DNA of 56,255 nucleotides, counting the filler, from Sphacelaria rigidula (lineage: Eukaryota), in NCBI GenBank assembly GCA_964200075.2. It is 5 parts of 5 records of this genome, joined end to end, with 100 filler letters (N's around TTAATTAATTAA, not from the genome) between each part and the next. Parts side by side here need not be neighbours in the genome. Positions count along the whole stretch, not along the records: positions 33,818 to 44,986 come from CAXNAA020005288.1; 4 more parts are not named here. The stretch is one strand, 5' to 3'. The notes under the pieces are model-generated. The model was given only the letters and a program-made list of their open reading frames with translations. It ran no database searches and was not told the DNA's origin. A program made the position numbers and the translations under genes. Position 1 is the stretch's first letter. Each line of letters opens with the position of its first letter. This document shows positions 12,009 through 51,200 of the stretch, one piece after another.

Positions 12009-13330
12009 TCAAAAGGCTTCTGCGTCCGCTTCCGAACATACTGAAGAATCGGTACTACCCGACGACCCTACTGCCATTGCTGTATCTTCGTTTTCTCCTG
12101 TATTACAATCCTGATAGGAGTGTCCCTTTTTCCGCATCTCATACAATGTCGTTCCGGACAGTCACGCGCGAAGTGTGTTGTTTGCTTCCTGCAAATCCAA
12201 CATCGCCTCTCCTTCGCAGAACCATTTTTACGCCCGTCTAGTTTTGAACCCCCCGTACTTCCCGAGGTCCATTGTAGTTTTCTCTTCCGACTACCCTTGC
12301 CACTGTTCGTCCCAACTGACATCAAAGCTTGGCTATCCTTTCCCTTGTTATCTCTGATCATCCCGAACCTAGTTCTCAACGTCGCCAATGAATCTTCCAC
12401 ATCCAAGCCTTTCTGTGAGAGGAGGTGCTGTTTCTGGTGATCACAATCAGCTGTGAGTCCGTCCAGAAAATGCGCGAATACTATTTTTTTTTGTATCAGT
12501 TGTTCGAGAGCCGTTTCCAGTGACACAAAAACGTTTTGATATTGTTGCCAGTATTTGCAGGGGTCCTGGCCAGTTTCCTGTGTCATATGGAAAAACTTCC
12601 CAACCAACGAGATCTGTCCACCACCAGTCAACGGCGCATAATACTCTTCCAATGCTCGCCACGCCACAGACGGTCCCTTACAGGAGTAGACGGTTTGCTT
12701 CACATGCTTATCCTTTATGGAACTCACCAATCCCACCCACAAGAGTCTGTACATCTGGATTTCCTGTGGTGCTAATCCCTGACTAACCAAATCCTCGTTA
12801 CTTGCACCGTGAACCTGAATGTTTCGTGTGTCTCGTAGGGCGCTCATAAAACCTACTGCACTGACTTGTGTCAGGAAATCATCACGGAACAACGGCCAAT
12901 TTCCCTCCTGACCATGAAACTTTTCATCAACACGAAAATAATTCTTCACGCCTATATGGGGGTAGTGAGCCGGGGACTCCTCGTTCGTACTTATATGGGC
13001 GGATCCATCGCCCGTGGATCCTCGAAGAGGGCCTGATACAGTCCCTACACCGAGTGGTGACCGGACCCTCCCTGTTCCGGCACCGGCGACGGTGTGCCTT
13101 CCGTCGCCTGCCTCCCCCTCCTCGTCCGCTGCTGCTCCGGGGCCAGTGGACGATGTCCCGCGCACTAACTGGGACACCATTATCGTCTTCAGCTCCGCCA
13201 GCTGCTCGGTGATATACGCCATCGAGTCTTGCAAGCTGGCGACATTCTCTTTCACCTCCAGCACCTCTGTTGGAGACGATGTGTCTCCCACGACGGCCGA
13301 GTGTCTTTCCGCAGTGCTCCAGTCCGCCAT
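12009..13330 (-). pseudogene. gag: Copia-type (UBN2/Retrotran_gag_2-like) Gag with CCHC knuckles; 1-nt frameshift in second knuckle
   Basis: MADWSTAERH... FHGQEGNWPLFRDDF... SVAWRALEEYYAP... FLDGL... CWICRKQTTHFARDC. The T-run near 12127 is one base shorter than in the other copy, shifting the C-terminus. Confidence 0.85.
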
Positions 13331-13572
13331 CGGTCCCTTGGCCACGAAGCTCCCAAGTTGGGTAGGGTCTCTAGAGTGTTTGTAGCTTCGTGACCCCGTG
13401 AGAGGATGGGGTGCAGACTCGACTCTGATAGTCGATCAATGGACACGACTGCGATAGTCGATCAATAGACACGGCTGACTGCCGATCAAGATGAGGTAGA
13501 AATGTATATAAAGCTTTGTTGATGAAGAGGGAAGGAAGGGGAGTGGGCCCAGTAGGCGCCAAAGTCTCAAGA

Positions 13573-17899: not shown

Positions 17900-19450
17900 T
17901 GAAGAAGAAGCCGAACGAGATACCTGCCGAACATGCCAAAGAGCCAGAGCCCACAACGATTGCCGAAGCCCGCGCCTCTGCACATGCTAACCTTTGGGAG
18001 GGGGCTATGAATTTAGAGTTCGAGGGGTTGCTTGCAGCAGGGACTTTTACCTTATTAGGATCAGTTCCGGAAGGGAGTAACATAGTGAACGCTAGATGGA
18101 TTTTCAAGTGGAAAACTGATGTCAACGGCGAAATCTTGAAGGCAAAGGCTAGGCTTGGAGCAAAAGGTTTTAGCCAACGGTACGAGATTGTACAATTTGT
18201 CTCCTCGTAGCGTTTGCAAACGCGTATGGATGGGGTCTTAGTCATTTCGACATCGAGCAGGCGTTCATTCAGTCGGATTTGGACTATGAGATATATACGA
18301 GGCTGCCCCCACGTTGCGGATCAATGTCAGGAAAAATTGTCCGCCTTAACAGATCCATTTATGGATTTAAAAATAGAGTGCCAGAAAATTCTACAAACTG
18401 TTAGTGTCGAGACTTGTGAAAATTGGTTTCGAACAGTACCTGTCGGATCCATGCATATTGCGATTGCTAGTGGATGGTAAGTTGGTTGGAGCAGTCGTTT
18501 TGCATGTAGATGATATCATTTTTGGCGGGGCAAGTAGTGTGCGTAAGATAGTGGTGGAAGCACTAAATGACACACTGCCAACTAAGCATTTGGGCGATCT
18601 CATATGGTACATGGGAGTGGAGTACAAGCGTGACAAGGAAAACAGGGTGATCGAATTGTCGCAGACAAGTTACATTAGAAGCGTACTTGCACGTTTTGAT
18701 ATTTGCCGCTCCAGCTCTATTCCCGCCTCTACTTCTATGAATCTCAGGTCCGTGAATGAAGACAAAGGTGTCAAGGATGTGCCGTTTCGCGAAATGGTGG
18801 GTTGTTTGATGTGGATTGCCAATCAAACCAGACCTGACATCTCGAACGCAGTGAGGGCCGTGGCGCGACACTCGCACGATCCGAAGGAAACCACGCTGGA
18901 AGGCAGTACGATTGATTTTCGAGTACTTGCATTCAACGGCGGACCTAGGGCTGACATATCGTGTAGGACCTGGTGTAGACATAAGAACAACAGTGTATGT
19001 GGATGCGGTCTACGGGAAGGATAACGAGGCGAGGAAATCGGTATCGGGTGGTGCAGTGTTGTGCGGTAGATTACCAGTAGCATGGTACTCCAGGACGCAG
19101 AAGAGCGTTACACTTTCGACCACGGAAGCAGAGTATGTGGCTATGGGGGATGGTGTCAAAGAAGCTTTGTTTGTAGACGGCATTGTGAATTTTCTATTAG
19201 TTGACAGGAAAGCAAGGACCATCAGGGTGTTGGAGGATAACGAGGGTGCGGTTGCTTTAGCTGAAAATCCAATAATCTCGTCGAACAGCAAGCATATAGA
19301 TATTCGTCATCATTTTCCGAGGGAGTTAGTGGACAATAAGAGGATAACGTTGGAACACGTACGGAGTAACGAGCAACACGCTGATATTCTGACCAAAGCG
19401 TTACCTCGCGGAGCTTTCGTCCACCATTGAAATGTTTTGTCGGGTATTGA
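17900..19450 (+). pseudogene. pol: Copia pol (RVT_2 reverse transcriptase + RNase H), frameshifted
   Basis: Pieces in ORFs 17755-18210, 18404-19024 and 18912-19430, plus an intervening frame. Confidence 0.9.
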
Positions 19451-23968: not shown

Positions 23969-24571
23969 CACTCGCGTGTTTGCCTCCTGCTCGTTGAATA
24001 CAGCACTACAGTGTTGAGCCGTACGCCAACACACCGAGTCTTGTTTGCACGTCATGTGCTTTTTCCAAGTACGGGGAGCGATGCGAAAAAACTTGCGTGA
24101 TGGGTGTAACAGTGTTGTCGTGAGAATGAGAGTAGAGCGCTGATTGAGAGTGGCTTTGATCATTCGCTTCAACTTGGCTGTACTTTTCTCTACTTCCATC
24201 ATTTTCGTGTACTTACAGCTATTGTACACATCGATATCCTATAGTCAGGGATATCAAGGGCCTCAGCGGCCAGCTACTACAGAAAGCATATTGGGCCTCG
24301 TGGAGGGGCATTTCGGAACTGAAATGATTTATTCACCAAGTGAGCACTCCTCACTCTCAGTCATATCCTCTACCGGCTGATGCGCCCCATATACCGAAAG
24401 GTGTAGACCGGCGTCCAGAATAGATGAGACGACAACACACACACTCTCAATCTCACGAAAACACCCTTGTGTGCAGTTCAACTCGTCGTGTAATGCCGAA
24501 GTATAGTCAGCGGATGCGACACATGCAAACATGTGGCCGAAACTTTCAAACATATCAAAATCTTCACTCAC

Positions 24572-25040
24572 CGACTCCACCGTGCAATACCCAGCATCCG
24601 ACAAACGCTGGACGTCGTTTCGATTAATGCCGTGTGCCTCCAATTCCGTGATGTGGTGAAAGGCAGCTACGACCTGAGGAATTTGAAACAATTTTTACAC
24701 CGAGAAGGAGAACAGCACGACAGCAAGCCGGGATTCCAAAAACATGAGGAGCATGACCTACCAGCGTTGCGCTACCTCAGAAGCAGCAAAGTCTGTGCGT
24801 TGTCAGAACGCAGCAACTGGCCGGTCTGCAACCACCATCCCACGCGAGTAGTGACTCTTCATCTCCTACACAGACAGTACAGCACAGATAGTCGGTGCGG
24901 TACACTTAGCTCACAGTACGCTTACGCCACTTCGAAGTAAATGCCAACTCTCCCCTAGATCCAGACAGTTCGCGCACCTCCTCAGTTGTTTCACCAGTTT
25001 GAATTTCTCCACTTTGTTCCATCTCCTGCTGGGCCGACAT
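24572..25040 (-). CDS. RAD51: DNA repair recombinase RAD51, exons 1-2 (remaining exons not found in this contig)
   Basis: Exon 1 25040-24978 (MSAQQEMEQSGEIQTGETTEE|GTGCGC); exon 2 24673-24572 (VVAAFHHITELEAHGINRNDVQRLSDAGYCTVES|GTGAGT). Matches the RAD51/DMC1 N-terminal domain start; DMC1 cannot be fully excluded. Confidence 0.8.
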
Positions 25041-33817: not shown

Positions 33818-35175
33818 CTTGCACTCTGTGACCACGGGTTCGAGAGATCGAGCTAATGTGATTGATATAATAATAATAATAATAATGCGACAGAGGACTG
33901 GATAATCTATGTGGTTTACTATGCACACAAAAATTAAGCCGATAGTCTAATTTCCATGTTAGCAGGAAAGCAGAAATATGGCTGCTTGAGAGCTTGCCCT
34001 AGCAGGAGCCAGTGCTAGCAGTCTCCGTTGAGCATTCGTGGGAGTTGGGTCAATCAGAATATATTATACCATACTTCAGTATGCTCCATGGATTGGTTTC
34101 AACGATTTGCAGTAGCATCGTTGACTACTACAAAAGTATTAGAGGTGCAGCAGTAGTATCTCAAACTCGAGATTTCCGGTACATTTAACCCTTAGACCGC
34201 GAGGTTAGTCTTCTGTTGAATCGGTATCAATTTCAAGTGAAAAAAAGTATGGATGATCCAGAAAGACTAATCTCGTGGTCTATGGGTTAAAGTCGTAAAC
34301 CGCGAGGGTAGCCCATTTGGATCATGCATACTTCGTTCAGGTGAAATTGATGCCGATTCAACAGACGACCTACACTCGCACAGGGCTAGGCCGTGTCTGA
34401 CCGATCGCGAGACAAAAAAAACAAGCACGAAGAGGAGCGAGGGTCCAAAAGCAGCATGCTGATAAGTCGCCACAGCCGTAGACCCGCCCGACGATCCATC
34501 AAGAACTACTTCCTGCTGTGGACGTTTGTTCATTTTCGTGCGTGTTCTTTTTGTCTCGATAAGATACGGCTTTAACAGTCATTTGCCGTCAAACCTACCG
34601 GGAATCTTGAGTTTGAGATCCCTTTCTTCACGTTCGAGTTTTAACCGTTTGGCCGCAAGGGTAGGACATATATAAACTTTTCTCTCATTTTGCAAGTGAA
34701 ACATCATGCTAATTCAACAGATGTCCCACTCCTGCGGTCAAATTAAGAGTTGAACGCTCAAGACCTGAAGAGAAGTGAGAATCCTCTCCACCGAGGACAA
34801 CCATCATGATAACATGCCGAAATAATTCGTTTGGAATGCCTCATCTGGTATCTGATATGCACGTACCGTATCCTACAACGGAGATCCAAACAAACATGTT
34901 CGGAGTCGAATTTTTGCGACCACCAGGAGATAATTATGCTCAACCTTTTATCACGAAACATACATTTTCGGGCCATTCTCACTATTATATTATTATGTTC
35001 TGGCTGTTATGCAAAGATCCAAGACAACTGCTTCGCACCCTTGCCCACGGCTCTTCACGCTGCTGGTGCTTCTGTAGTGAGCCACTATACCACGTGCCGC
35101 CACCCTCACAGACTCCAACTGGCTCGACAAGTTACCGAAGACCCGAAGCTCCTGTAACCATTCGTTCGCGGTTTG

Positions 35176-38100
35176 ATGTCGTCATCATCGACAGCACAAA
35201 CGCAATCCCGTGCGGTTCCACCCACGAGCGAGGTGCCTTTTTTTTCGAGCTTGCATGGAAGGGAGCGCCGTAATTTAAGGGGAATCGAGCGCAGGGATCT
35301 GCAGGCAGCCGTCAAGCACGGAAAGAGGGAACCAGGTTGGCCTGACCCTTCCACCGGAGAGCCAAGGTGAATGAGTAGATGAACGATGGCAACAGGGTGG
35401 GTCGAATGGCGTCTCGGTACGAGGTGAAGTATGTTCTTGTTGTCGCGTTTGAAACGAGGAGAGGAGTGGATCTACTGTGTGCTCAAAACGTACTTCCCAT
35501 TTCAGCCGGCAACAGTATGATCGGCCGACATGCATAATACGCCGGTATGCGTGATGAAATGATACAAGATCAGGAGGTGTCAACGGAGAGTCAGGATCTC
35601 CAGCTTCTCCTGTCGAGGTCGTTGTCCTTGTCCTGATGCCGAAGGTACTTCCAGCGTGGGGTACCTTACGTGCTTCCGTGTCATTCAGACAAGAAAGTGG
35701 TCAGGCAGCGAGTCGTGCCTTCATGCGCACTCGGGCTTGTAATAATGTCGTATGGGTGACGCACGGAATGTCTAGGGTAACACAACTCGGCGCTGGTGGG
35801 TGATCAGACCCTTTCAGGTTCGTTCGCCCCATACCCCGTACAACTACGATAAGAATTTCGCCGTGACAAAACGCAGGTCAGAGGCGTATGTCTCTATCTT
35901 TTGACAGACACGCATTAACGTGGTTCCCACGTACACTTTCGTGGAATTTCCACCGACAGGTCGCTGGAACCCACGACTACGAAAATGCTCTGCTTGGTGC
36001 AAGAGTGAACTTGCTGCAAGGAGAGTGGATTCGCAGAAAGATAAAATATGCACACACCCTCTTCAGCTACCCCAGTACTGTGAGGATAGATGCGCGTTAC
36101 CACCGGCACACAAGACTTTTGAACTTGGAAAATCAAGCCGGACCCTCATGATTCTTCGCAAAGTCTGATCTCATCGCAAGAATTTTTGCCAAATACCGGC
36201 GACAGGCCTACTCTAGTACGTGCACGTAGTATACATGGTCGTGCGACTTTCTGTAGAGCAACACTCGCATGCATGTCACTCTACATATTTCTCCATTCGT
36301 TTGATAAATTCATATATTTCAGGTGGAAGTACACCTGGGCCGGCATCGTCTACATCACGGACGCATCCTCAACGGTTGAAGTAACGTCATACGCTGAGTC
36401 CATCGAGATTCCTACTGCCGAGCTGACGTCCGATGATGTAGCCGAGCACGAGGCCTCCAAGGAAAGGATTCGGCGAGATCCTTCCCTTTGCACATCGCAC
36501 ACGGTGATCGTCGTGGACCAGTCGGGCTCTATGCGTACGTCCGATGTATTCGACTTCAAGAATAGATCGCAGGCCGTTTTCGGTATGCTCGCGCTGGATT
36601 TCGTCGCCAAGCAACGCTTATCCGGGGAAGCCAGCGCTACAGATGTGGTGTCGCTTGTGCTCATGCATGATGAAGCTGAAGTGGCCTTCGAGCGGGAGCC
36701 GATGGGCCTCATTCTGTATAACAAGTTCGTCGACCTTCACAACAATGGGGTTCCGAGGTCGCACGGCAACTTCTTGCCGGCACTTGAGCTGGCCCAGTCG
36801 TTGCTGGAGGAAGAGTGCCATGGCAGCTGTGCGATGTCGTTACTGTTTCTATCCGACGGGAAGCCCAGTGACCCGACGGAAAAGTTGTATCCATCAGGAC
36901 CTCCCCGGGAAGAACTCATTGCCAGTGAAGTAGCCTCTCTAGCGGAATCGTTCGGGCAGCAGCTGTCTGTGTCTACCCTCGGCTTTGCCAACCGCGACCA
37001 AGATTTCTCGGTATTGGAGAAAATGGCCAAGGCTGCGCAAGATGCAGGGGCCAGTGGCGAGTTTCATCGCCCCGAGCTGTCGTCCGCTGGCCTGGGCACC
37101 GCCATCGCCCGCACCGTATCCTCACTTACGGCCACGAGAACCAGGTTAACACTATTGGCCGAGCAGAGTGGGCCGCGGCGGCCTGTGCGGCAAGTAGCAA
37201 GGGAAAGGGCAGGTGGCTTCTGGGATTGCGTGCCGACCCGTGGTGACACCGACAATGAGCTAGCAAACGGCGAGGGTGTTTCGTCCGGATGGGTGATTCG
37301 CAACAAGAAAGTCGAGCGCTGGAAGTATGTACATCGACGGAGGGACGATCGTAGGGACCCATGGATGCCACGGAAATTTCACTCTGACCAAGCCGACTGC
37401 GTCGCGATCCGACGCAAAACTCTGGGGGAGGGAGCGGAGCGCATCGTCTTTGGGTTGCGGGTGTGCGCGTACTCGCAAGCAGTTTGGAGCGATATAGGAG
37501 AGCTCCAACAACATGATCTCTCTGTATATAATGCATGTAGCTCCGGTGGTAGGGTCACGATGTTTCGAGGTAGCGACTCCTGCCCAAGAGCACAAAAAGT
37601 TTTTTGCTCCATCTGTTTGTGCCCATACATACTTATGGGCGTACCGTATGCATTAAACCACCTACCAAGTATTGTGTTATGTGAACAAACGTGTTACCAG
37701 CCATAGGCATGGGACAACTTAATATTCTCACCCATGGTTTCACTGGCCATCCACCACTATTCACGGAACTGTCCGCGCTTGCTCCTTCCTCAGGAATTTG
37801 ACTCCCGTACCTGGGCGTTTGTTGGGCCACGAATGGTAGCGAAGGAGAGCGTACACGTGTCCACGGACGAAAATGACCGAATCGGTTTTCACAAGAAGTT
37901 CATCCAGACCCAGCAGACTGCCAGGCGCTTTACCAACAAGTTTAATAAGGTGGTGAGGGAGCGCCTGGCCGTTCAAAGGTTTAAGCGCCCTCACGTGTGG
38001 GAGGTGACGTTTGTGGACTGCAGCGTGTACTCATACCACCGTCAGAAACCGGACGACGATCCTTCAGAGAGAACCCAGCAAGGTGTTCTCGTCGAGAAGT

Positions 38101-41100
38101 TTCTGGAAGGACACTACACCAAGTGGAACGGCAACAATGGATACGTAGCTGGTGCTTCCACCGAACCGGATGACGAACGGCAGGCCCGTGCAAAGGAGAT
38201 GATGAAGGTGAGTGTGCACATTTCGTAGCTACGAGCAACTTGGAACGTACGCCCGGAATAGCACCGCTATTGATCAAGAGTATCACAAAGTATGCCCTGC
38301 TCGTAGGCCGTTTCTTTGTTCTTGGTATATGTTAACCCTTTTGGACCCTATTGACGATTTTTGTTGTTGTGGATCGGCATCATTTTGACTTGGAAATGAC
38401 TGAAAATGATGCCGATTCACAACAACAAAAATCGTCACTGGGGTCCCAAAGGGTTGAAAAAATGGAGCAAAACATGCGCGGCACACGAAGCATATTACTG
38501 CACTATGTATATATGCGGCACCCGTGGATGACGACTACGGCCTACCTCACCCAGGACGGATGGCGAAAAAGGAACAGTGTCTCACTCGGTGTGTGGGGTA
38601 TGAAGCGTGTGGGCACGCGATGTGGACTAGGAGTTGGTAGCTCTTGCTCAGAGACTGGGCCAAAGTTTACGCTTGGACAAAATAGACACGGTCCATGACG
38701 GAGCCGTGCCCAGAGTGGGAAGCATGAAGCTAGGTCGGACTGGAAATGGTAGGAGTTGGTACCTCGCACTGAACCGTACCGACTCCGGTTTCAGAACCGT
38801 TCCTGGTGGTAATTCACTCTACGACAGAGGGTGGGGGGGGGTTCGGGCCATTGTATGGGCGAAAATGCCACTTCTAATCGTCGTTGAATGCAGCAACTTT
38901 TGTTCGGATGCACTTGGTACCGATAATATGCACTCGCTCATACTCCTTGACACCGTTTTCACCCCCGTAGAAGCGCATCGCGAGTGTGTCAGGTCGTCTG
39001 ACACGCCCATGCGCCCCTGTTTTTCGTGCAATCAACCCGCCCCCCCCTCGCCATGTCGTGGGATCACGCCGATGCCTTGTACCGAACCGTCCTGGCTCCT
39101 ACCAGGCTGGTTGGTTGTACGCTCGAGAATCTACGCATGATAACTATATTCTACACATATTCTGCACAAGATTCACCTGAGCATTCAACCCTTGACTAAA
39201 CAGTCAACTTCAAAGCTCGAACCTTCACGTACAGGTTTACGTTGAAAGTCAGAGGTTCAGCATAAAGTTACATCGGTTGCTTGCCCACTGTACACTTTTG
39301 GGGTGAATGGCTTGACCGCAGTGCAAAGCTTAGCCGACAAAATACAAACTTCGCGTTACGCCTTCTGGAAAGCAGATTACTCTGCATCGAAGCATACAGC
39401 AAAACACAGTGAGAGGAACAGGCATGCCAGCTTGAGGAAGGGTCAGGCAGGCATAATCGAGAACCGATTAATACAGCAACGGCTTGATCATGTAGTATGC
39501 TGGGATGTCACAGCATCCGCTGAGCTATCAGCCAGCGCTGATCAATAGAGCCAAATGGGTATTATGATATCTCAATAGAACACAGTGTATCGATTAAAAC
39601 GATACATGAATGCAGACATCTTAACCAAGTTTTCAGGGTAACGCCGACTGATAGCCCAGTGGTTTACTTAATGAAGCGTTGTGTGTTGACATCTTCACTA
39701 AGAGCTTTGGGACAGTAAATCGATTGATGGATGGATTCATTGGTTGTCGCACTTTATTGATCCCCCAGGGATCTAGCCGTGGTCACATTATAGAGGGTAC
39801 CCGAGGCAAAACAGAACTAAAACACTGGCTGAAGAAAGACGAAGAAACAGACAAGGTAGAGCAGAACAGCAGAGTAGACTAGGACAGAAGAACAAAATAC
39901 GTGAATAACAAGAGAAGAGAAATAAATAAAAAATGGCCGGCCTCTGCCACATTGCTTCGGTGGAAAAGGTCTTGTGCAGAGCCGCACTCATGCCCAGTGG
40001 TGGCAGGAAACAAAAGACCGTGGGAGAAGAAACGAAAAGCTCGCGAGTAACAGTTTGTTGCTGCTGGGTAGGTAGACCTGTACGTGTTGTTGAAGAATAG
40101 CGTGAGGTAAACCTACAAACTCACGTAACATTGGATGATTCGTTGAATGGTTCTACAGAGAAACACACCGAGGTGCAAACACTTTAGGCAACAATAAGCA
40201 CGGTGAAGCTACGTAATAGCAGTATTGATTATGGAGTTGACAGCCCTGGGGTGAAGCTAGGGTTCAACCTATAGACCAAGGGAAATACTAAAAGACAGAC
40301 TGAACAGCTTGAACGGACCCCGGAATTAACTGTCGTTGATATATCACAATAACCGCCAGGGTGTCGGCCAGCCGCTGATTGGTAGCTCAGTGGTTTTTGT
40401 GATATCTCAACATACATGGTACAGTCCCCCACTCCGAGCAGCGGGCGGTGGCGGCATACAAAAAGGGCGACGGGGTGGCCATCTCTTTTTGTAGCGGTTG
40501 CCAGTAAGTACCCTTGGCGCGCACGATAATTGGTTTCTGCCGCCACCTGACCCTATTCTGGATGTGAAAAGGCGAACAAGCGGCGACTCCGTGAGGGAGA
40601 TAAATGTCCGACGATGAAATGAATGCGGCCTGGGTGGTCAGCACACCACAGCAGTAACGATGGGGAATGTGATCGCAGATGATTACAGTAACCCCAGTGT
40701 CATATGTCGCTGCTGCACAAGCATCATGCCGGTACCCGAATCTAGCTTTGAGGTAGTGGTGCGCAAACACTGTATTATTCGAAGATTGTCCTGCTGGCGG
40801 CAGGTGGCGAAACTATGAGGTACCACCACTAGTTTTCTGCACTACAGGGCTATTATACTTGTATTGCAATCCGCATATGCATACATGCTGAGTATCAGGT
40901 AAAAAATCTCGCTTGCCGATGATTTCCGGCGATTTTTGCTGTGTAGCAGTGAACAGCCACCTACAACGGGCTCTTTTGTTGTTGATAGGGCTCGGTTGCA
41001 AAAGGGTTACTCTGACCGTTCAGATGAAGGTTTAGCTTGAAGGTCGACTTTTATGGTGAAAGTCCAACTCAACGTCGACTTTTACCCTGACGGTGCAACC

Positions 41101-42093
41101 CAAGCTCTTTATTCAAGGTAAAATTTTAACTTATAGGTTCGTCGTTGAACTCAACCCTCCACCCCGGTCACAATGACGCCGATTCAACACACGTCACGCG
41201 GCCTGGCGACGTCAACATTTAACTTGAAGGGTTCAATTTTCGATTCAAATGTTCACCTGAATGTTGAAACGCTGAGTTGGAGGTCAAAAATTAGACCTCT
41301 GATTCTCGACTTCTTCGCTCGAGATGAAATCGTGAAAATACTAAAGATTCAACAGGTAGACTCAACGTTGGGTCTTTAATTTTCACCGGGCGCTCAAACC
41401 TTGAGTTGACGTTCGAAAGTTAATCCTTTGACTTTTCAAGTTCATCATTGAAGGTGGAGCCGTGATCACTGCGGGCTGTGTCCACCTCGTACCTAGATGT
41501 AAGGACCGCCATTTCCTCCTGTTTCTTCTTGATGTATAGATACATTATTGCTCTCTGCGTTTCAGGCTATTCCAGAGGGCGAAGACGAAGAATACGACAG
41601 CGATGATAATGATGGCGCCAGCAATGCAACAAGCGATGACGACGAGACAGGCTTGGTCGCCTTGGTTGGTTCCTCCTATCAGGGTCGACAGATTGTGAGT
41701 CAGCGTGGTGGCGATAGCGGCGGTCGCCGGGCGAACGGCGGCGACTCCCGCAAATATCCAGTCCCAGTGATGGAACGGTTTGATCCGACCGCCGAGTGCT
41801 ACTTGCAGGCATTCTCGCATTTCTCTTATAGGTACTCGAAGCGCTCGATGCTGATATGCGACTTACAGGGAGTTCTATCGGCTGATGTCGAGGGCAGGGA
41901 AAAAGATGAATGCGAGGGAGTATTCGAGCTAACAGATCCGGTGATACACTACAAGTCTAGATCTGGCCGTCGGCAGGTGTACGGCAAAACGGACTTTGGT
42001 AAAAAGGGCATGCACAAGTTCTTCGAGACGCACTTGTGCAATGATGTTTGTGTGTTACTTGGGCTGGCTAGCCGAGTACGCACTGGGAACTAG
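35176..42093 (+). CDS. vWA-domain alpha-kinase (eEF2K/MHCK family) with N-terminal DUF4258-like domain, ~756 aa, 4 exons
   Basis: Exons 35176-35366, 36323-37460, 37794-38207 and 41566-42093 splice in frame (2271 nt, all GT-AG). vWA: HTVIVVDQSGSM (MIDAS DxSxS), LLFLSDGKP. Alpha-kinase: LGEGAERIVF, VAKES, LVEKFLEGHYTKWNGNNG, QAFSHFSY, ICDLQGV, LTDPVIH, GKTDFGKKGMHKFFETHLCNDVC. Confidence 0.9.
38336..38453. mobile_element. 118-bp hairpin MITE, piggyBac-like ends
   Basis: TTAA|CCCTTT..AAAGGG|TTGA, ~50-bp arms nearly complementary; intronic. Confidence 0.7.
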
Positions 42094-43914
42094 TATGGGG
42101 GCTTTAGAGTCGGAGACACCATATTGCAGCGGGCCTGCACAAGCGGTACCCGATAGGGCGGCATTACTGGTGAGCCCGGCGTTTCTTTCTGCCACCGCAA
42201 GGTTTTTCAGTAGCATGGATGATTCGCTGTCACCGGAGAAAGTATCCGCACTGAGGCAGGATGGCAGAAATGGCGGAGCTCACTTCTACTATATTTTGGT
42301 ATATCTATAGTGGGGTGACACACGCCCCTTCGATCGGCATCAACTTCGAACGGAAGCTCTTGTAAACAAAAGCGTTGGATGACGTGACACCAGTTGCTCG
42401 ACAACCGAATCGTCAACGGGAGGTTGTTGCTGAATGCTAAAAGCATGCATCTACAAGCTACCTCGTCGGTTTATCCCAACGGCAAGAGTGTTTGTATGTA
42501 CGACCTGACTGTTTTTGAGTGACATATTCGTGATTTTTATGCCTTGGCGGACTCCCTGAAACAGAATTACGTGATCTCCTACCGCGAGTGATAAGCTTCC
42601 CCTACGACGATCCTGTCGAACCCATGTATTACACCCTTCGCTGATTACGGAGGAACCGTAAATATAAATATGTAGATATTTGCTAGTGCGTTGGGGTTTG
42701 TTTGACACATCGGTCGTTCGGATCATCCACGTACGTACCCTGATCATGTCTCGCCTGATTCTAAGGCGACTCTGGGTCTGATTTCGCCCTTTTATCTCAT
42801 TTATTGTGTGGTGTGGGAGGTTATTGAAGCGCGTGCCTTCGCAGCTCCTCAAGTGCTGCAAACACGCATGTCAGAGTGGGCTATTGTTATGGTACTTCGG
42901 AGGCGGGTACTGACGAACGGAAAATGCCAAAGTGTAACATTAGAACAAGTAGTGCTTGTGGTAGTGGGCAGGGTCTCGTATATAGCACAGACAACATATG
43001 CGGTGTGCCGCTTGTGGATGAATCGAGTACATCTTTGTGTCTGCTGGTCCAGTGGGTCTGATTAAAACATTTTGATGTGAATATCGATCTGTGCAGGTCA
43101 ACAGGAGTTTTTGGAAAATGCTTCGTGGCTAACGCTTGACTCCGAGGCTATCACGCAAGATTGTTTATGTTGAGCACATCGGGCCGAGAGTACATACATG
43201 CGTGAGGGTCAGTTCTCAAAGAAGCGCAACTCGGTCTATAGCCTCTGCTTGAGCGGATCCGGAACATCTTTGTTTGATGGGATTAGAGGGGGGTTCCTCA
43301 CAGGTAAATACCTCTGAGCCCCACAAGACTTGGCAAGGTATGATACGGGAGACGGATTCTCATGCGCGATAACATAATATTTAGAAAATGGCATTCAAAC
43401 CCGAAATAGCGCTTCCTCCCTCAACCTATTGCAAATCATGATGGATGGCTATTTTTGACCGACCCCAAGCCCGCGATCGCGTGAATACTTTTCCAGAAGC
43501 TCCTACTAACTCTGTACGCCTACAGCGCTGGGCGATAACGACTTTCGTGGTTGTTTTCATTAACACAACACCAAAAGTCGAGGCAAAGATGCTCTTCCCC
43601 TCTGTGCCGTGGGCGTCAATAGTTTATGAAAGCCAACACAGAAGTATATTATCGACGCGTTCGTCAGTCAATGATCATTGGCCACAGCAGGTCTTCTTGG
43701 AATACGGATCATGCGCTGTCTCGGTTGCACCTAACTGCTGGGCTTAGTAACCGCGTTGTCAAAGCACTCTGTTCACTGCTGAATGAGTCAGTGATGACAG
43801 TGGAAGATGAACAGAAGAAAGAAACCCCAATGAGTGAACAAAACAGCACGTAAAGGAGTAAGTCCGGGTAAACATAGTTATCCTTTACATTAATGAACTC
43901 ACTTTAAGGCCCAA

Positions 43915-44466
43915 AACAGACGATCATCGAAATTGAGGATGGAGCTTTTCATTGAGGATGAGAACCCGAAAAATTGAAATCTTCGTATCCATAGCAAATC
44001 TTCGAAATATGGTTCCATTCCTTCACCTACTGGTAGCTATTGACAATTGCTACACGCCCCACAAATCTGGATTCCGACAACCGAAATGTTAGGGTCCTAG
44101 ATGAAGCAATTTTGGGGAATTCAGGGGATCCGATCGGATCGCCGCAATTCCCTGAAATTGCTCTTTCACCTAGAACCCCAACATTTCGGTTATCGGAATC
44201 CAAACTGGTATCTCGTGTAGTATTTGTCAATGATTGCGGCGATCCGATCGGATCCCCTAAATTCCCCAAAATTGCTTCATCTAGGACCCTAACATTTCGG
44301 TTGTCGGAATCCAGATTGGTAGGGCGTGTAGCAGTTGTCAATAGCTACCAGTAGGTGAAGGAATGGAACCATATTTCGAAGATTTGCTATGGATACGAAG
44401 ATTTCAATTCCCCGGGTTCTTATCCTCAATGAAAAGCTCCATCCTCATTTTAGATGATCGGCCGTT
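43915..44466. mobile_element. 552-bp palindromic non-autonomous TIR element with nested subrepeats
   Basis: Arms 43915-44147 and 44233-44466 are close reverse complements; CCAA flanks both sides (candidate 4-bp TSD). Confidence 0.85.
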
Positions 44467-44986
44467 CCAAGTCACTACTTTCCGATGCATTGTTCACGCT
44501 GTCGGAGGTGCAGGCAAAATTACTGCGAGCAAAAACGAGCGGTTTTGAACGTGCATATTTGCTTTGGCCAGTGATATCTTGCTCCTCCTTGCTCAATAAA
44601 AAAGGGACGTCGATCGTCATCAGTACTTGACCTTCACGCCTTCCGCTGGCACGATATAAAAGTTTTGAGTACATACAGTTGCGGCCCGGAGATAAGAAAC
44701 GCCAATTTGGGGTTGAGGCTCAAAGTCTTATTTCGGGTGCAAACACCAGCATAGTTTGTGTTTTTTTCTTATATTGAGTTTTCTTATATTTCTGGTCGAT
44801 CGGATCCTGTTGATTTTCTTAAATTGTCGTTCTCTTATATCCTCGAGGTACTGCCTCCGCCACCTCCTCGCTGCACGCAAATTAGTCAACGAAAAACACC
44901 CCCGCAGGTCTACAGTGTCTAACTGGCGCTACCCGAAATCAAGAACGTATGCCGCTCCCACAAAAATTACAGTTTAGCAGGGGGGG

Positions 44987-48200: not shown

Positions 48201-51200
48201 GCTTTTATTTCGTGGGACGAGCCGGAAGTCCCGGAAGTGAGCTACTGCGTGGCGTATCCAAAAAACACACACACTACCACCGTTTGGTTGCAGTCCCATG
48301 TAGTATTACCTCGAGTACAGTCACTGCGCGATAAATGTTCGGTGGTTCCTGTTCTCATATAATCAGGTAAATGGTGGCATTCTTGTCACGTTGAACATGA
48401 GTTGGCTGCGTCGAAAACTACGGGCATCATTTGTCCGCTTTTAACGGTACCGCCCTCCCACGGTATCGCTCAGATGTACGCATATGTACATCGACAGGAA
48501 AAAAAAGCAAGCACAGAATCGAGTTCACATGATTTTGGACTTGAACATGAAAACAGATTGGCGGAATCAAGCATCCCGCAGAGAGTCAGCGTCTGGCTCG
48601 CGTAGCGTGTTCAACAGTGTTTCAACTTTCCCTCTCTATAAGTTTTGTCGATCCTGTTCAAAAAGATTCTATTCCCCTCTGCGACATCGTCCCAGATCGA
48701 TGCGTTCGTACAGCGCTGCTCGGAGCTTCTAGAAGTGTGCGAGAGCCAGGTCCAGTTTGCTAGGAAATCTACCAGCGAAGGCGGCAAGTCCTGCCCCCTA
48801 CCGGAGTTTGGTGGAACACGAGGACAGGAGGCAAGCCAACGTGTGTGTAGAAAAACCGACGACCCTCCGTGCGAAAGGCGCTCTAAGCAACCTTTTAGTC
48901 GGTCAGGAGGGTACTCTTTTGGCCATGGCGGGTATTTCTTTAGGTATACGAGGGGGGTGATCACAGTCTTCTGAAACACGGGTGGGCCATTCCGCAGCGC
49001 CCGCCACCCCGCATGATGTTCTACATCTTTGGGATTTCACACCGCAAACAGCTCTATTCACAGTTATCTGTGCCATGTGAAGAAATGTACGACTCGCGCC
49101 TGACCACAGCTAATGAACAAATAAAACGAGAGGCGCACATATTCAGAAAATTTAAATGACGGGCCACGTGCAATCGTTCATAGTTGAATCGAATTGTTAC
49201 AGCATTTCGAAAGTGGGGCAATGAAGGAAAGTAACGATTCATCGACGACGACTGCCGTGCAGGTGACGAAGGCTCTGCTTGGAATCCAAGATTCATTCGA
49301 GGCGCAGATCGACAAGCTTCGGAACTTGGACTACACCGTCTTGGACGTGAAGACTTCCCGATGGCACGACGATTATAACTCTTTCAAAGATGTTGTGAAG
49401 GATCTCCAGGTACGAAAACTCATCGAATACTCGTCGAGGAAACGTGTTCAACACAAAGCTTTTAAATCAACTTTTTTGCCACGAGAGGTAGATACACATA
49501 GACTCTTTGACAGACTGATTATCTACGGGTCGATAATGGAAGTGCGAGGATATTTTACGGAGTGGGCTACGCACTCTTGTGTTGTCAAGAGAAGTAGAGT
49601 CACATAGACTGTTGAACAAATAGTCGATCCACGATCTGCGGACGAAGTAGAGGTGCGAGGATATTTGACGATGTGGTTCACAAATACCCTGACACAACAA
49701 CGAGACATCGCCCCGAAAAGAGCCTCCGACAGATCCGTTACTCGATTCATCTTTGAATAGGAGAGACGCATAAACGCACGTCTGATCTCATACCTTTGTG
49801 GCGTGCGAAGGTGCGGAGCTCAGGCGCGCCCGTGTACAGCTTCGCAATTGTGCTTGTTATCATTCATCGTGACCCTTTATCGTGACTATACAAGCAGAGC
49901 AGTCGACTGATAAGTTCTGCAAAAAAATGATGCCACATGAGGTGGACACGATCATAACCCCGGCCAACATGACGGGACGTTTACTCCTGTCCCCGTTGCG
50001 TGCAAGAGATGTACACGAACGTGATCAAACACGGTAAATGAAGCAGTGCGCCATAACGGGCATCACGAGCTGAAACATGCCACGGGAGGGTTTCGTGTTT
50101 CCTACCATTCTACCCGTAGGCGGTGGATGTACACGAAGATAAAAAAACACGGCATGTGGAGGCCTCACACGAATTGCGGATCGGGAATATCACAGGAATA
50201 TCTTGATTTTTCCTGGATTGTTTGCAGGTGATGTACACAAACGTGATTAACACGGCATTCGAAGGGATCACACGCATCACGGACGCGGTGGCCTTGCTGG
50301 AAATCTTTTACACCCTGGCGCGACGGGATGCCATCAAACAAACCTGTCTGAAGAAAACGGCGTATACGTACCACCTCTTTGTCAGGTATGTGCATGCACC
50401 AGGATCCAGATAGCACGATTGCAAAGATATGTATAGCACCCAGCTTGACCCGACAAAATCCACGTTTGGGAGATTGATACCTGATCAGGTCGGTCTAAAC
50501 GACTCATTGAATCACCAAAGATTGTCGTGTTTTGCGAAAGGTGCTCAAGTACGGTTACGTCCGAATTTCGATTACGCCCGATTTGCGGTTGTTTGATCTT
50601 AACTCTGGACGGCGGGAAACGCCTTCTAGGGCAGACGATATCCACCGGCACCGTAGTTATTTTTGTTTTCTCATTTCTCGCTAAGTCGTCGTGGTATAGT
50701 ATCCTAAGCGAATCAAGCGGAATTGTGGCTTTTCCTTCGACCGTTGTCTCACATCCCTCCCAAGGTCGCCTTTGTGGTCATTCAACGTGACCACACGGAA
50801 ATAAAGATACCCGCAAAATTTGACGAGAACAGGTAGAAAATAGGTCTCTTCTACGCACCAACAACTCTGGATGAAAGATGACGGGTCGTGTGCTACACTT
50901 TACCGTATAATCTACCCCCTTTCCATTCTCCCACAGTCTCTCTCCTATCTGCTTACTGTCCCTATCGCGACCGCGTGCGAATATACGTGGAAGTATTTCA
51001 TCGAGATTTTGGCCCGTATCGATCGAGTTTACAAACAAGAAAAATATAGAATCTACAAGAGATCACTCAGAGAACCCAGCGGCTATGGCTGTCGCCGTTC
51101 ATGTTTTGGTTACAATGCAAATAAACCCCCACAAGTTGGAACATTATCTGAAAGGCTATGGCGTCATACCCTCATACCCCGCTCCCCTCACCCCCCGCGC

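What the first reader, a model, noticed from the sequence alone, without database searches (positions are those of the whole stretch)
35176..42093. Toxin-like DUF4258/RelE-fold domain fused to vWA + alpha-kinase: candidate algal defence or translation-control protein
Seen: splicing exon 1 to exon 2 builds a compact ~70-aa domain, FFSSLHGRERRNLRGIERRDLQAAVKHGKREPGWPDPSTGEPRWKYTWAGIVYITDASSTVEVTSY. It is invisible in the ORF track because a 956-nt intron splits it. An intact-MIDAS vWA domain and a catalytically complete alpha-kinase follow. Knowledge: the pattern S/T-x-H-x-x-ER...RGI...D-L...V-x-x-G...beta strands...V-T-x-Y resembles DUF4258 (PF14076), a mainly prokaryotic family thought to have a RelE/BECR RNase-like fold. 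Alpha-kinases include eEF2 kinase, and vWA-alpha-kinases are known (Dictyostelium VwkA). Inference: one polypeptide may couple a vWA sensor to a kinase and an RNase-like effector, for example to shut down translation on infection. I know of no functional description of this architecture.
Basis: partly seen in the sequence, partly recalled or inferred. Interest (0 to 1): 0.75.

Follow-up and report, generated by a model that had tools for sequence, protein, structure and literature searches.

The report
Toxin-like RNase fused to algal kinase
This seaweed gene is real and spliced, and it joins a domain predicted to have the shape of bacterial RNA-cutting toxins (likely a tRNA cutter) to a binding domain and a protein kinase that would keep it switched off until stress or infection, a combination shared by many algae and a few other eukaryotes.

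Summary
Four exons give an open 756-aa frame, and one transcript-like contig skips all three GT-AG introns.

The N-terminal domain is conserved: His27, Arg31/32/35, Glu83 and Thr85 occur in 114-120 of 120 homologues. A homologue's model has the colicin-type BECR topology, and 26 of its 27 best structural matches are bacterial toxins. Its profile aligns with bacterial DUF4258 proteins (probability 94), though only 1 scanned member reaches Pfam's cut-off.

Corrections: DUF4258 is colicin-like rather than RelE-like; the MIDAS threonine is replaced by glycine; the family also occurs in oomycetes, green algae, a choanoflagellate, a chytrid and a hydrozoan.

Two additions. The kinase's disordered insert carries a PP2A-B56-type docking motif (43 of 65 versus 8 expected). 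Related bacterial DUF4258 genes head vWA-PP2C-kinase operons.

Best reading (about 45%): a latent, phosphorylation-gated tRNase that shuts down translation. RNase activity, target, trigger and gating are all untested. I found no description of the architecture in ten paper searches.

The parts
35176..35366 (+). Exon 1 (aa 1-64): start codon and first two thirds of the BECR-fold domain, with His27 (35254-35256) and Arg31/Arg32/Arg35 (35266-35280) on the predicted pre-alpha helix
   Evidence: covered by X6 contigs at 35105-35288 and 35317-35364
35367..36322 (+). Intron 1, 956 nt, GT..AG, phase 2; splits the BECR-fold domain
   Evidence: skipped by X6, read through by X3 and X5
36323..37460 (+). 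Exon 2 (aa 64-443): last strands of the BECR-fold domain (Glu83, Thr85, Tyr87 at 36378-36392), linker helix, vWA domain (about 36495-37166; DxSxS at 36516-36530, Gly212 at 36765-36767, Asp242 at 36855-36857) and start of the kinase N-lobe
   Evidence: model of homologue P0001
37461..37793 (+). Intron 2, 333 nt, GT..AG, phase 0
37794..38207 (+). Exon 3 (aa 444-581): alpha-kinase N-lobe (Lys460 at 37842-37844), hinge, and start of the disordered insert
38208..41565 (+). Intron 3, 3358 nt, GT..AG, phase 0; holds high-copy repeats
   Evidence: skipped in X6, X1 and X7
38202..41604 (+). Candidate PP2A-B56 docking motif (M-x-x-I-x-E, aa 580-585, then an acidic run), encoded across the exon 3/exon 4 junction (38202-38207 and 41566-41604), inside the kinase insert (aa 560-661)
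   Evidence: the insert has pLDDT 31-55 in the homologue's model
41566..42093 (+). Exon 4 (aa 582-756): rest of the insert, kinase C-lobe (Asp680 at 41860-41862, Asp705 at 41935-41937, Zn ligands His666, His737, Cys739, Cys743) and stop codon; the transcript contig runs on to 42377

Best explanation
The gene encodes a spliced BECR-fold + vWA + alpha-kinase protein with no signal peptide, whose first domain is predicted to be a colicin-type ribonuclease that likely cuts tRNA, and which would be held off by phosphatase recruitment and switched on by its own kinase to stop translation in a stressed or infected cell. Shown: the gene, its splicing, the three domains, the conserved residues, the family and the motif enrichment. 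Predicted from models and profiles: the fold, and an active site formed by His27 and the arginines on the pre-alpha helix together with Thr85 on the last strand. Inferred and untested: (1) the vWA domain binds a trigger protein or peptide at its modified metal site; (2) the alpha-kinase phosphorylates the protein itself or a translation factor; (3) PP2A-B56 docked on the kinase insert reverses this and sets a threshold; (4) above the threshold the RNase cuts tRNA, giving arrest or local cell death.
For: Fold: the model of homologue P0001's domain has pLDDT 88.6 and the order helix-helix-four strands, the topology given for colicin-like BECR proteins. 26 of the 27 chains with Z>=5 are titled toxin-antitoxin, colicin or CDI toxins. 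A phage DUF4258 protein matches at E 2.3e-4, TM 0.78, rmsd 1.7. Profile match to bacterial DUF4258-type proteins: probability 94.2 over 64 columns, pairing His, two Arg, Gly and the last-strand Thr-x-aromatic; score 42.6 against at most 14.7 in 60 column shuffles. Conservation: His27 117, Arg31 114, Arg32 116, Arg35 118, Glu83 117 and Thr85 120 of 120 homologues found with exon 2, which lacks the His and Arg positions. Reading the ends of the structural alignments without gaps puts Thr85 at colicin D Ser677 and CdiA-NC101 His248, both reported essential; this register is inferred. Characterised colicin-like members mostly cut tRNA. Fixed architecture: 120 of 120 homologues carry all three domains (one lacks the kinase C-lobe match), and 99 of 134 new domain hits continue into vWA, most of the rest being short. 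No signal-like hydrophobic stretch in 115 of 115 full-length members. B56-type motif: 39 of 63 non-redundant long inserts versus 6.7 expected, and 43 of 65 in a second set versus 8.3 (acid pattern kept in the shuffles). The genome has a B56 gene keeping the His-Arg pair that binds such motifs. Related bacterial DUF4258 genes precede vWA, PP2C, kinase and helicase genes in Polaromonas and in 4 of 6 loci found with it, with TerY and MkoA defence-profile hits in the Polaromonas operon.
Against: No activity, target, trigger, induction or knockout was tested. The best structural Z is 7.3, under the level the tool calls distinctive, and ParE/RelE, BrnT, CdiA and colicin E5 are tied within 1; PDB Foldseek gave no match at E<=0.001. 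Only the first half of the DUF4258 model aligns: 0 of 20 and 1 of 56 (that protein was picked for its precomputed hit) reach the cut-off. The gene appears once in this genome (lower bounds) and is slow-changing, unlike many immune families. 25 of 143 members have a short insert with no room for the motif and still keep the domain, and the Clytia and Aphanomyces stellatus members checked mostly lack the strict motif. The algal vWA is not specifically related to the vWA of the bacterial operon (probability 13) and the kinases are of different classes, so the operon is a parallel in parts and not a shown ancestor. All five operon cases are Burkholderiales. No PADLOC profile matches 6 of 6 family proteins scanned.
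Confidence: 0.45

Rival explanations
1. The RNase is active but serves ordinary stress, dormancy or developmental control, trimming a few host RNAs under kinase control, as IRE1 does (recalled), rather than killing infected cells.
For: Single copy here. Transcripts are present in three or four runs with no infection on record. The domain tracks the vWA/kinase core across the family (Mantel Spearman 0.41 against at most 0.13 in 300 permutations), with no sign of effector swapping among the hits seen.
Against: Colicin-like BECR domains are described as mostly conflict effectors. Paralogues have multiplied in Ectocarpus and Clytia. The nearest bacterial genes often lie among defence-type genes.
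Confidence: 0.22
2. The signal runs the other way: the BECR-fold domain binds RNA (for example cut tRNA or viral RNA) without cutting it and turns the kinase on, a sensor arrangement like that of PKR or GCN2 (recalled).
For: The invariant residues are mostly arginines, which suit phosphate binding. There is one His and no second catalytic His. The domain is N-terminal, and the kinase keeps its catalytic set. The bacterial operons follow an RtcR-like regulator in 4 of 4 scanned, a family recalled as sensing cut RNA ends.
Against: One His plus a last-strand Ser/Thr is a usual active set in this fold, and bacterial stand-alone DUF4258 proteins share the same invariant set.
Confidence: 0.2
3. The domain is a RelE-type ribosome-dependent mRNase.
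For: RelE, ParE and YoeB chains are as close as colicin-like ones by Z. Gerdes 2025 lists DUF4258 among RelE/ParE families (PMC11980606, passages).
Against: The later structure-guided classification moves DUF4258 to the colicin-like branch. The model ends after the fourth strand, without the C-terminal extension described for RelE-like proteins. The top Foldseek rows are CdiA-NC101.
Confidence: 0.08
4. The domain is a small protein-interaction module whose likeness to BECR toxins is only a common alpha/beta arrangement.
For: Z stays under 8. There is no PDB sequence hit apart from a designed protein. Atlas scores of 0.82-0.85 are leads only.
Against: Sequence profile, structure and conserved-residue positions point independently to DUF4258/BECR.
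Confidence: 0.05

Closest known systems
DUF4258 (PF14076) / Ntox49, colicin-like branch of BECR RNases (Zhang 2012, PMC3482391; bioRxiv 10.64898/2026.08.28.747851)
   Same: Same topology, the same His/Arg on the pre-alpha helix and Thr on the last strand. Zhang's table already lists Ntox49 in stramenopiles and viridiplantae.
   Different: Here it is N-terminal, unsecreted and fused to vWA and alpha-kinase, with no immunity gene seen, and it has an extra invariant Arg32 and Glu83. It mostly scores below Pfam's cut-off. No DUF4258 protein was experimentally described according to PMC11980606.
Colicin D, colicin E5 and CdiA-CT NC101 tRNases
   Same: Structural neighbours (Z 5.0-6.9); the inferred register puts Thr85 at their catalytic last-strand position.
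   Different: About 10% identity. The His falls at the colicin D Lys607 position and an Arg at His611 in the inferred register. These toxins are exported against other bacteria.
vWA-alpha-kinases: Dictyostelium VwkA, ciliate and oomycete forms (PMC2827801, PMC3019232)
   Same: vWA followed by a C-terminal alpha-kinase with Zn finger.
   Different: The passages read mention no RNase-fold domain. This family has Gly at the MIDAS Thr, no conserved alphaC acid, and a long acidic kinase insert with a B56-type motif.
Bacterial vWA-PP2C-kinase triads (TerY-P and YegL/K/I, recalled; triad mentioned in PMC7159879) and the Burkholderiales DUF4258-vWA-PP2C-kinase-helicase operon found here
   Same: Same parts list: DUF4258-type domain, vWA, kinase and a phosphatase (here a predicted docking site for one).
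   Different: Separate genes, a Hanks-type kinase, an encoded PP2C and a canonical GGT in the vWA; the vWA shows no special kinship to the algal one.
RNase L and IRE1 (recalled, not tested)
   Same: One polypeptide joins a sensor, a kinase fold and an RNase.
   Different: Every part is of another family: they use a KEN RNase and a Hanks-type kinase or pseudokinase.

Membership tests
DUF4258 (PF14076) | Score at or above the Pfam gathering cut-off (25 bits) | tested here: not met
   Window exon 1: 12.6 bits (the spliced domain was not scanned). Homologues: 0 of 20 and 1 of 56 at 25.1 bits; 22 of 56 match at E<=0.05, first half of the model only.
DUF4258 (PF14076) | Profile-level homology over the whole domain | tested here: met
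   hhalign probability 94.2 and 93.8 over 63-64 of 76 columns; shuffle maximum 14.7 against 42.6. The bacterial set was seeded from a family member, so it leans towards similar proteins; 4 of the 8 scanned reach the cut-off.
Colicin-like BECR RNases | Pre-alpha helix + alpha + four-strand meander | tested here: met
   Model of homologue P0001: H9-18, H22-31, E33-36, E48-52, E55-59, E65-71, pLDDT 88.6; definition read.
Colicin-like BECR RNases | Conserved His and Lys/Arg on the pre-alpha element and a polar residue on the last strand | tested here: met
   His 196, Arg31 192, Arg32 195, Arg35 197 and Thr85 197 of 199 non-redundant domains (part of this set was found with the domain profile); 114-120 of 120 in the set found with exon 2.
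Colicin-like BECR RNases | Structure closer to colicin-like than to RelE/ParE members | tested here: inconclusive
   Top Z values 7.3, 6.9, 6.9, 6.8 and 6.5 span both groups and are tied.
Colicin-like BECR RNases | Metal-independent RNA (tRNA) cleavage | not testable with these tools
   Needs an assay.
Alpha-kinases (PF02816) | Pfam cut-off, invariant Lys and two Asp, Zn finger | tested here: met
   48.8 and 86.2 bits against a cut-off of 21.3; Lys460 120, Asp680 117, Asp705 118, His737 115, Cys743 115 of 120; Z 22.1 to MHCK-A; features read.
Alpha-kinases (PF02816) | Acidic residue in helix alphaC pairing with the Lys (recalled) | tested here: inconclusive
   No conserved acid at aa 474-486; Glu461 next to the Lys is Glu or Asp in 108 of 120 and may substitute.
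vWA with canonical MIDAS | DxSxS plus a distal Asp | tested here: met
   120 of 120 and 119 of 120; definition read.
vWA with canonical MIDAS | Distal Thr ligand | tested here: not met
   Gly212 in 120 of 120 sits opposite Thr134 of the GGT motif of a bacterial vWA; His211 is kept in 77 of 120 and may stand in.
PP2A-B56 interactors | [LMFI]xx[ILV]xE with acidic residues after it, in a disordered region, conserved | tested here: met
   consensus read in PMC10970375. The window's copy has Met at position 1 and Ile at position 4.
PP2A-B56 interactors | Physical binding to B56 | not tested
   No job or assay was run on this pair.
TerY-P / vWA-PP2C-kinase triads | TerY-type vWA, PP2C and Hanks-type kinase encoded together | tested here: not met
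   Alpha-kinase, no PP2C in the gene, vWA probability 13 against the operon's vWA, no PADLOC hit.

The most novel reading that the evidence does not exclude
Algae and scattered other eukaryotes carry a one-gene abortive-infection switch: a colicin-type tRNase taken from bacterial conflict systems and gated by a vWA sensor, an alpha-kinase and docked PP2A-B56. It would be an RNase L analogue built from entirely different parts, mirroring a bacterial DUF4258-vWA-PP2C-kinase operon, and a candidate executor of the hypersensitive cell death of brown algae.
Probability: 0.3. Interest if true: 0.9.

Novelty: new variant of a known kind. Interest (0 to 1): 0.72.

Why it matters
Brown algae resist intracellular oomycetes by local cell death, and the abstract of PMC12396294 presents the molecular mechanisms as still to be worked out. 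This family offers a single-copy, knock-out-able candidate with named residues to change. It would also give the first function for a DUF4258-type domain in eukaryotes and a role for a class of vWA-alpha-kinases. If the gating is right, it shows bacteria and eukaryotes arriving at the same RNase + vWA + kinase + phosphatase wiring. The family is large (893 clusters at 50% identity) and carries no functional name in the records seen.

Tried and rejected
Complex prediction of the N-domain with the rest of homologue P0001 gave no answer (score 0.01, alignment not used). It says nothing for or against autoinhibition.

No run was on record as RNA; splicing was read from contig joints instead. Contig depth was not used as a measure of expression.

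Searches for close prokaryotic or viral relatives of the domain found none: viral contigs, genome contigs with one member, phages and plasmids with P0121, shorter proteins by word search (2 hits, both short family-like proteins). Only the best 150 of 893 profile hits were visible, so other architectures are not excluded.

The PDB sequence search with the domain profile gave one designed protein. PHROGs gave one unnamed family in 5 of 23 members. NCBIfam and PADLOC gave nothing useful. No Rfam family lies in 33818-44986.

Weak plasmid and phage matches of P0184 to an Rhs-annotated region and a jumbo phage were not supported and were dropped. Locus L027 is a TonB receptor, a false match, and is counted as a miss in '4 of 6'. 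Descent of the whole protein from the bacterial operon was rejected for lack of vWA kinship.

Gene transfer between eukaryotic groups is not claimed: the tree is FastTree only, unrooted, with no topology test, 86 of 121 rows were in neither tested group and most rows are unnamed. dN/dS was not computed. Earlier-findings look-ups for this architecture were empty.
Full report
Observation. The sequence holds four exons, 35176-35366, 36323-37460, 37794-38207 and 41566-42093, which join to 2271 nt and 756 aa without a stop. One 2414-nt contig of run X6 skips exactly 956, 333 and 3358 nt, each GT..AG, and runs X1 and X7 of another study also skip the third intron. X3 and X5 run unbroken through intron 1. 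Pfam finds vWA and alpha-kinase above their cut-offs and DUF4258 only weakly on exon 1 (E 0.17). The protein sits in a 14-member branch (support 99) in which every named member is a brown alga. It was found once in the 244-Mb genome by three searches, which are lower bounds.

The family. Exon 2 found 168 longer relatives, of which 120 were listed. All 120 carry the N-domain, vWA and kinase. A profile of 23 domains matched 893 clusters at 50% identity, of which 150 were shown. Of the 134 new ones, 99 continue into vWA, 34 are N-domain only and 71-233 aa long, and 1 joins the domain to a kinase without vWA. Named members include brown algae, diatoms, chrysophytes, Heterosigma, Chrysoparadoxa, Aphanomyces, Chlamydomonas, Pyramimonas, Cymbomonas, the choanoflagellate Didymoeca, the chytrid Obelidium and several Clytia paralogues. 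Most records are unnamed, and transcriptome entries can come from prey or contaminants. None of 115 full-length members has a signal-like N-terminus, so a cytosolic location is likely.

The N-terminal domain. His27, Arg31, Arg32, Arg35, Glu83 and Thr85 are kept in 117, 114, 116, 118, 117 and 120 of 120 homologues, and in 192-197 of 199 non-redundant domains. It has the highest mean identity of the regions compared (0.54). The models are of the Ectocarpus fasciculatus homologue P0001, not of the window's own spliced protein. The domain model (pLDDT 88.6) has two helices and four strands. That is the pre-alpha + alpha-beta1-4 topology that the 2026 classification gives for colicin-like BECR RNases, where it also places DUF4258 with Ntox49 (10.64898/2026.08.28.747851, sections 10 and 19 and passages). 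Of 27 chains with Z>=5, 26 are titled toxin-antitoxin, colicin or CDI toxins, but the best Z is 7.3 and both branches tie. Foldseek on the PDB gave no match at E<=0.001. Among viral models, a DUF4258 protein matched at E 2.3e-4 and TM 0.78.

Link to DUF4258. A small set of bacterial DUF4258-type proteins, seeded from a weak plasmid hit, has His, Arg, Arg, Gly and a last-strand Thr invariant. It aligns with the algal profile at probability 94 over 63-64 columns, against a shuffle maximum of 14.7 for a score of 42.6. Strict Pfam membership is not met: 0 of 20 and 1 of 56 reach the cut-off. Read without gaps from the ends of the structural alignments, Thr85 falls on colicin D Ser677 and CdiA-NC101 His248, both reported essential (PMC3482391 passages; PMC5737660 passages). 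That register is inferred, not checked residue by residue. I put the BECR fold at about 90% and an active RNase at about 65-70%.

vWA and kinase. DxSxS and the distal Asp are kept, but the MIDAS Thr position (definition in PMC6509490 passages) holds Gly in 120 of 120, opposite Thr134 of a bacterial vWA. The kinase keeps the Lys, both Asp and the Zn ligands named in PMC2827801 (passages; counts) and matches MHCK-A at Z 22.1. Helix alphaC has no conserved acid; the usual role of that acid is recalled. An active kinase is likely but not shown.

A docking motif. The kinase has a low-confidence insert. I noticed a recurring L/M-x-x-I-x-E plus acidic run by eye in the sequences and then tested it. 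It occurs in 39 of 63 non-redundant long inserts (4.5 expected; 6.7 with the acid pattern kept) and in 43 of 65 inserts of a later, not dereplicated set (8.3 expected, maximum 18 in 500 shuffles). It matches the PP2A-B56 consensus (PMC10970375 passages). The genome has B56 matches on two contigs. One keeps the His-Arg pair that contacts such peptides and the other is divergent (PMC7108865 passages). Against a universal role, 25 of 143 members have a 23-28-aa insert; the 21 of these in the tree form one branch. Binding was not tested, and an intramolecular role is possible.

A bacterial parallel. In Polaromonas plasmid pPNAP01 the DUF4258 gene leads vWA, PP2C, kinase and helicase genes, with TerY, MkoA and MkoB defence-profile hits. 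The same order holds in 4 of 6 loci found with it: Rhodoferax, Variovorax, Paraburkholderia and Caballeronia. One other lacks it and one is a false match. The five other plasmid regions viewed with several kb of flank or annotation show no annotated triad. An RtcR-like regulator precedes the operon in 4 of 4 scanned. The vWA domains show no special kinship (probability 13) and the kinases differ in class, so this is a matching parts list in one bacterial order, not a shown ancestry. TerY-P as a tested defence system and RtcR as a sensor of cut RNA are recalled.

Mechanism. The most likely reading (0.45) is a latent tRNase. A trigger bound at the vWA domain would shift the balance between the protein's own kinase and docked PP2A-B56, releasing RNA cleavage and translation arrest. 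Every step after the anatomy is inferred. Rivals are a housekeeping or stress RNase (0.22), a non-cutting RNA sensor for the kinase (0.20), a RelE-type mRNase (0.08) and a chance fold (0.05). Single copy number and slow change argue against a fast-evolving immune gene. The toxin ancestry, the paralogue expansions and the bacterial operon argue for conflict.

Prior knowledge. Ten searches (listings only unless stated) showed no paper on this architecture. Zhang 2012 lists Ntox49 in stramenopiles and viridiplantae (section 28), so the eukaryotic domain was probably seen, but the held text has no 'vWA' or 'alpha-kinase'. Its supplement was held only as a 1,214-character file, and the bioRxiv supplements were not seen; either may mention the fusion. 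PMC11980606 (passages) calls DUF4258 undescribed. PMC3019232 (passage) notes oomycete vWA-alpha-kinases without an RNase. The brown algal genomics preprint 10.1101/2024.02.19.579948 has none of six terms. PMC7159879 (passages) mentions kinase-PP2C-vWA neighbourhoods. PMC12396294 was seen as abstract and outline. Most subscription papers are not in the library.

Verdict. The gene is real and expressed, the domain is conserved and very probably a colicin-type BECR fold, and the architecture is a new variant of kinase-coupled RNases. Function is untested. Interest 0.72.

Noticed in passing
L019:8976-23160 (NC_008757.1 126975-141159); L022, L024, L025, L026: Burkholderiales operon of an RtcR-like sigma-54 regulator, DUF4258, vWA, PP2C, kinase and a MkoA-like helicase (MkoB-like and AAA genes follow in Polaromonas); looks like a candidate defence system worth its own study.
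   Followed up: partly
window 38334-38455 (intron 3): A 122-nt inverted repeat (84% self-match) with summed contig depth above 1000 in all four runs; probably a high-copy MITE-like element. Other repeats lie near 38970-39000 and 39760-39960.
   Followed up: no
window 41670: T>C in contigs of runs X6 and X1 against the window; third position of a Gly codon, so silent; probably an allele.
   Followed up: partly
window 12071-13435 (-) and 18377-19021 (+): Weak copia-type gag and reverse transcriptase matches on opposite strands, below Pfam cut-offs; retrotransposon remains.
   Followed up: no
window 49188-49604 (+) and 24494-24937 (+): An exon of a dynein heavy chain (DHC_N1, above cut-off) and a weak CFAP107 match; ordinary flagellar neighbours.
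   Followed up: no
fold match A0A481YYZ3: A 963-aa 'putative hemagglutinin' of Mimivirus LCMiAC01 holds a domain of the same shape (E 6.2e-4, TM 0.76), so giant viruses may carry related RNase folds.
   Followed up: no
proteins P0084, P0091, P0099, P0010, P0044, P0157, P0236: Family members with extra domains: ankyrin repeats, ubiquitin-like, UBA, weak EEP nuclease and WW matches; P0236 lacks the vWA.
   Followed up: no
   Followed up: partly
G000 C2185 (L007) and C23433 (L006): Two B56-type genes: one close to human B56 gamma in the peptide-binding helix, the other divergent there.
   Followed up: partly
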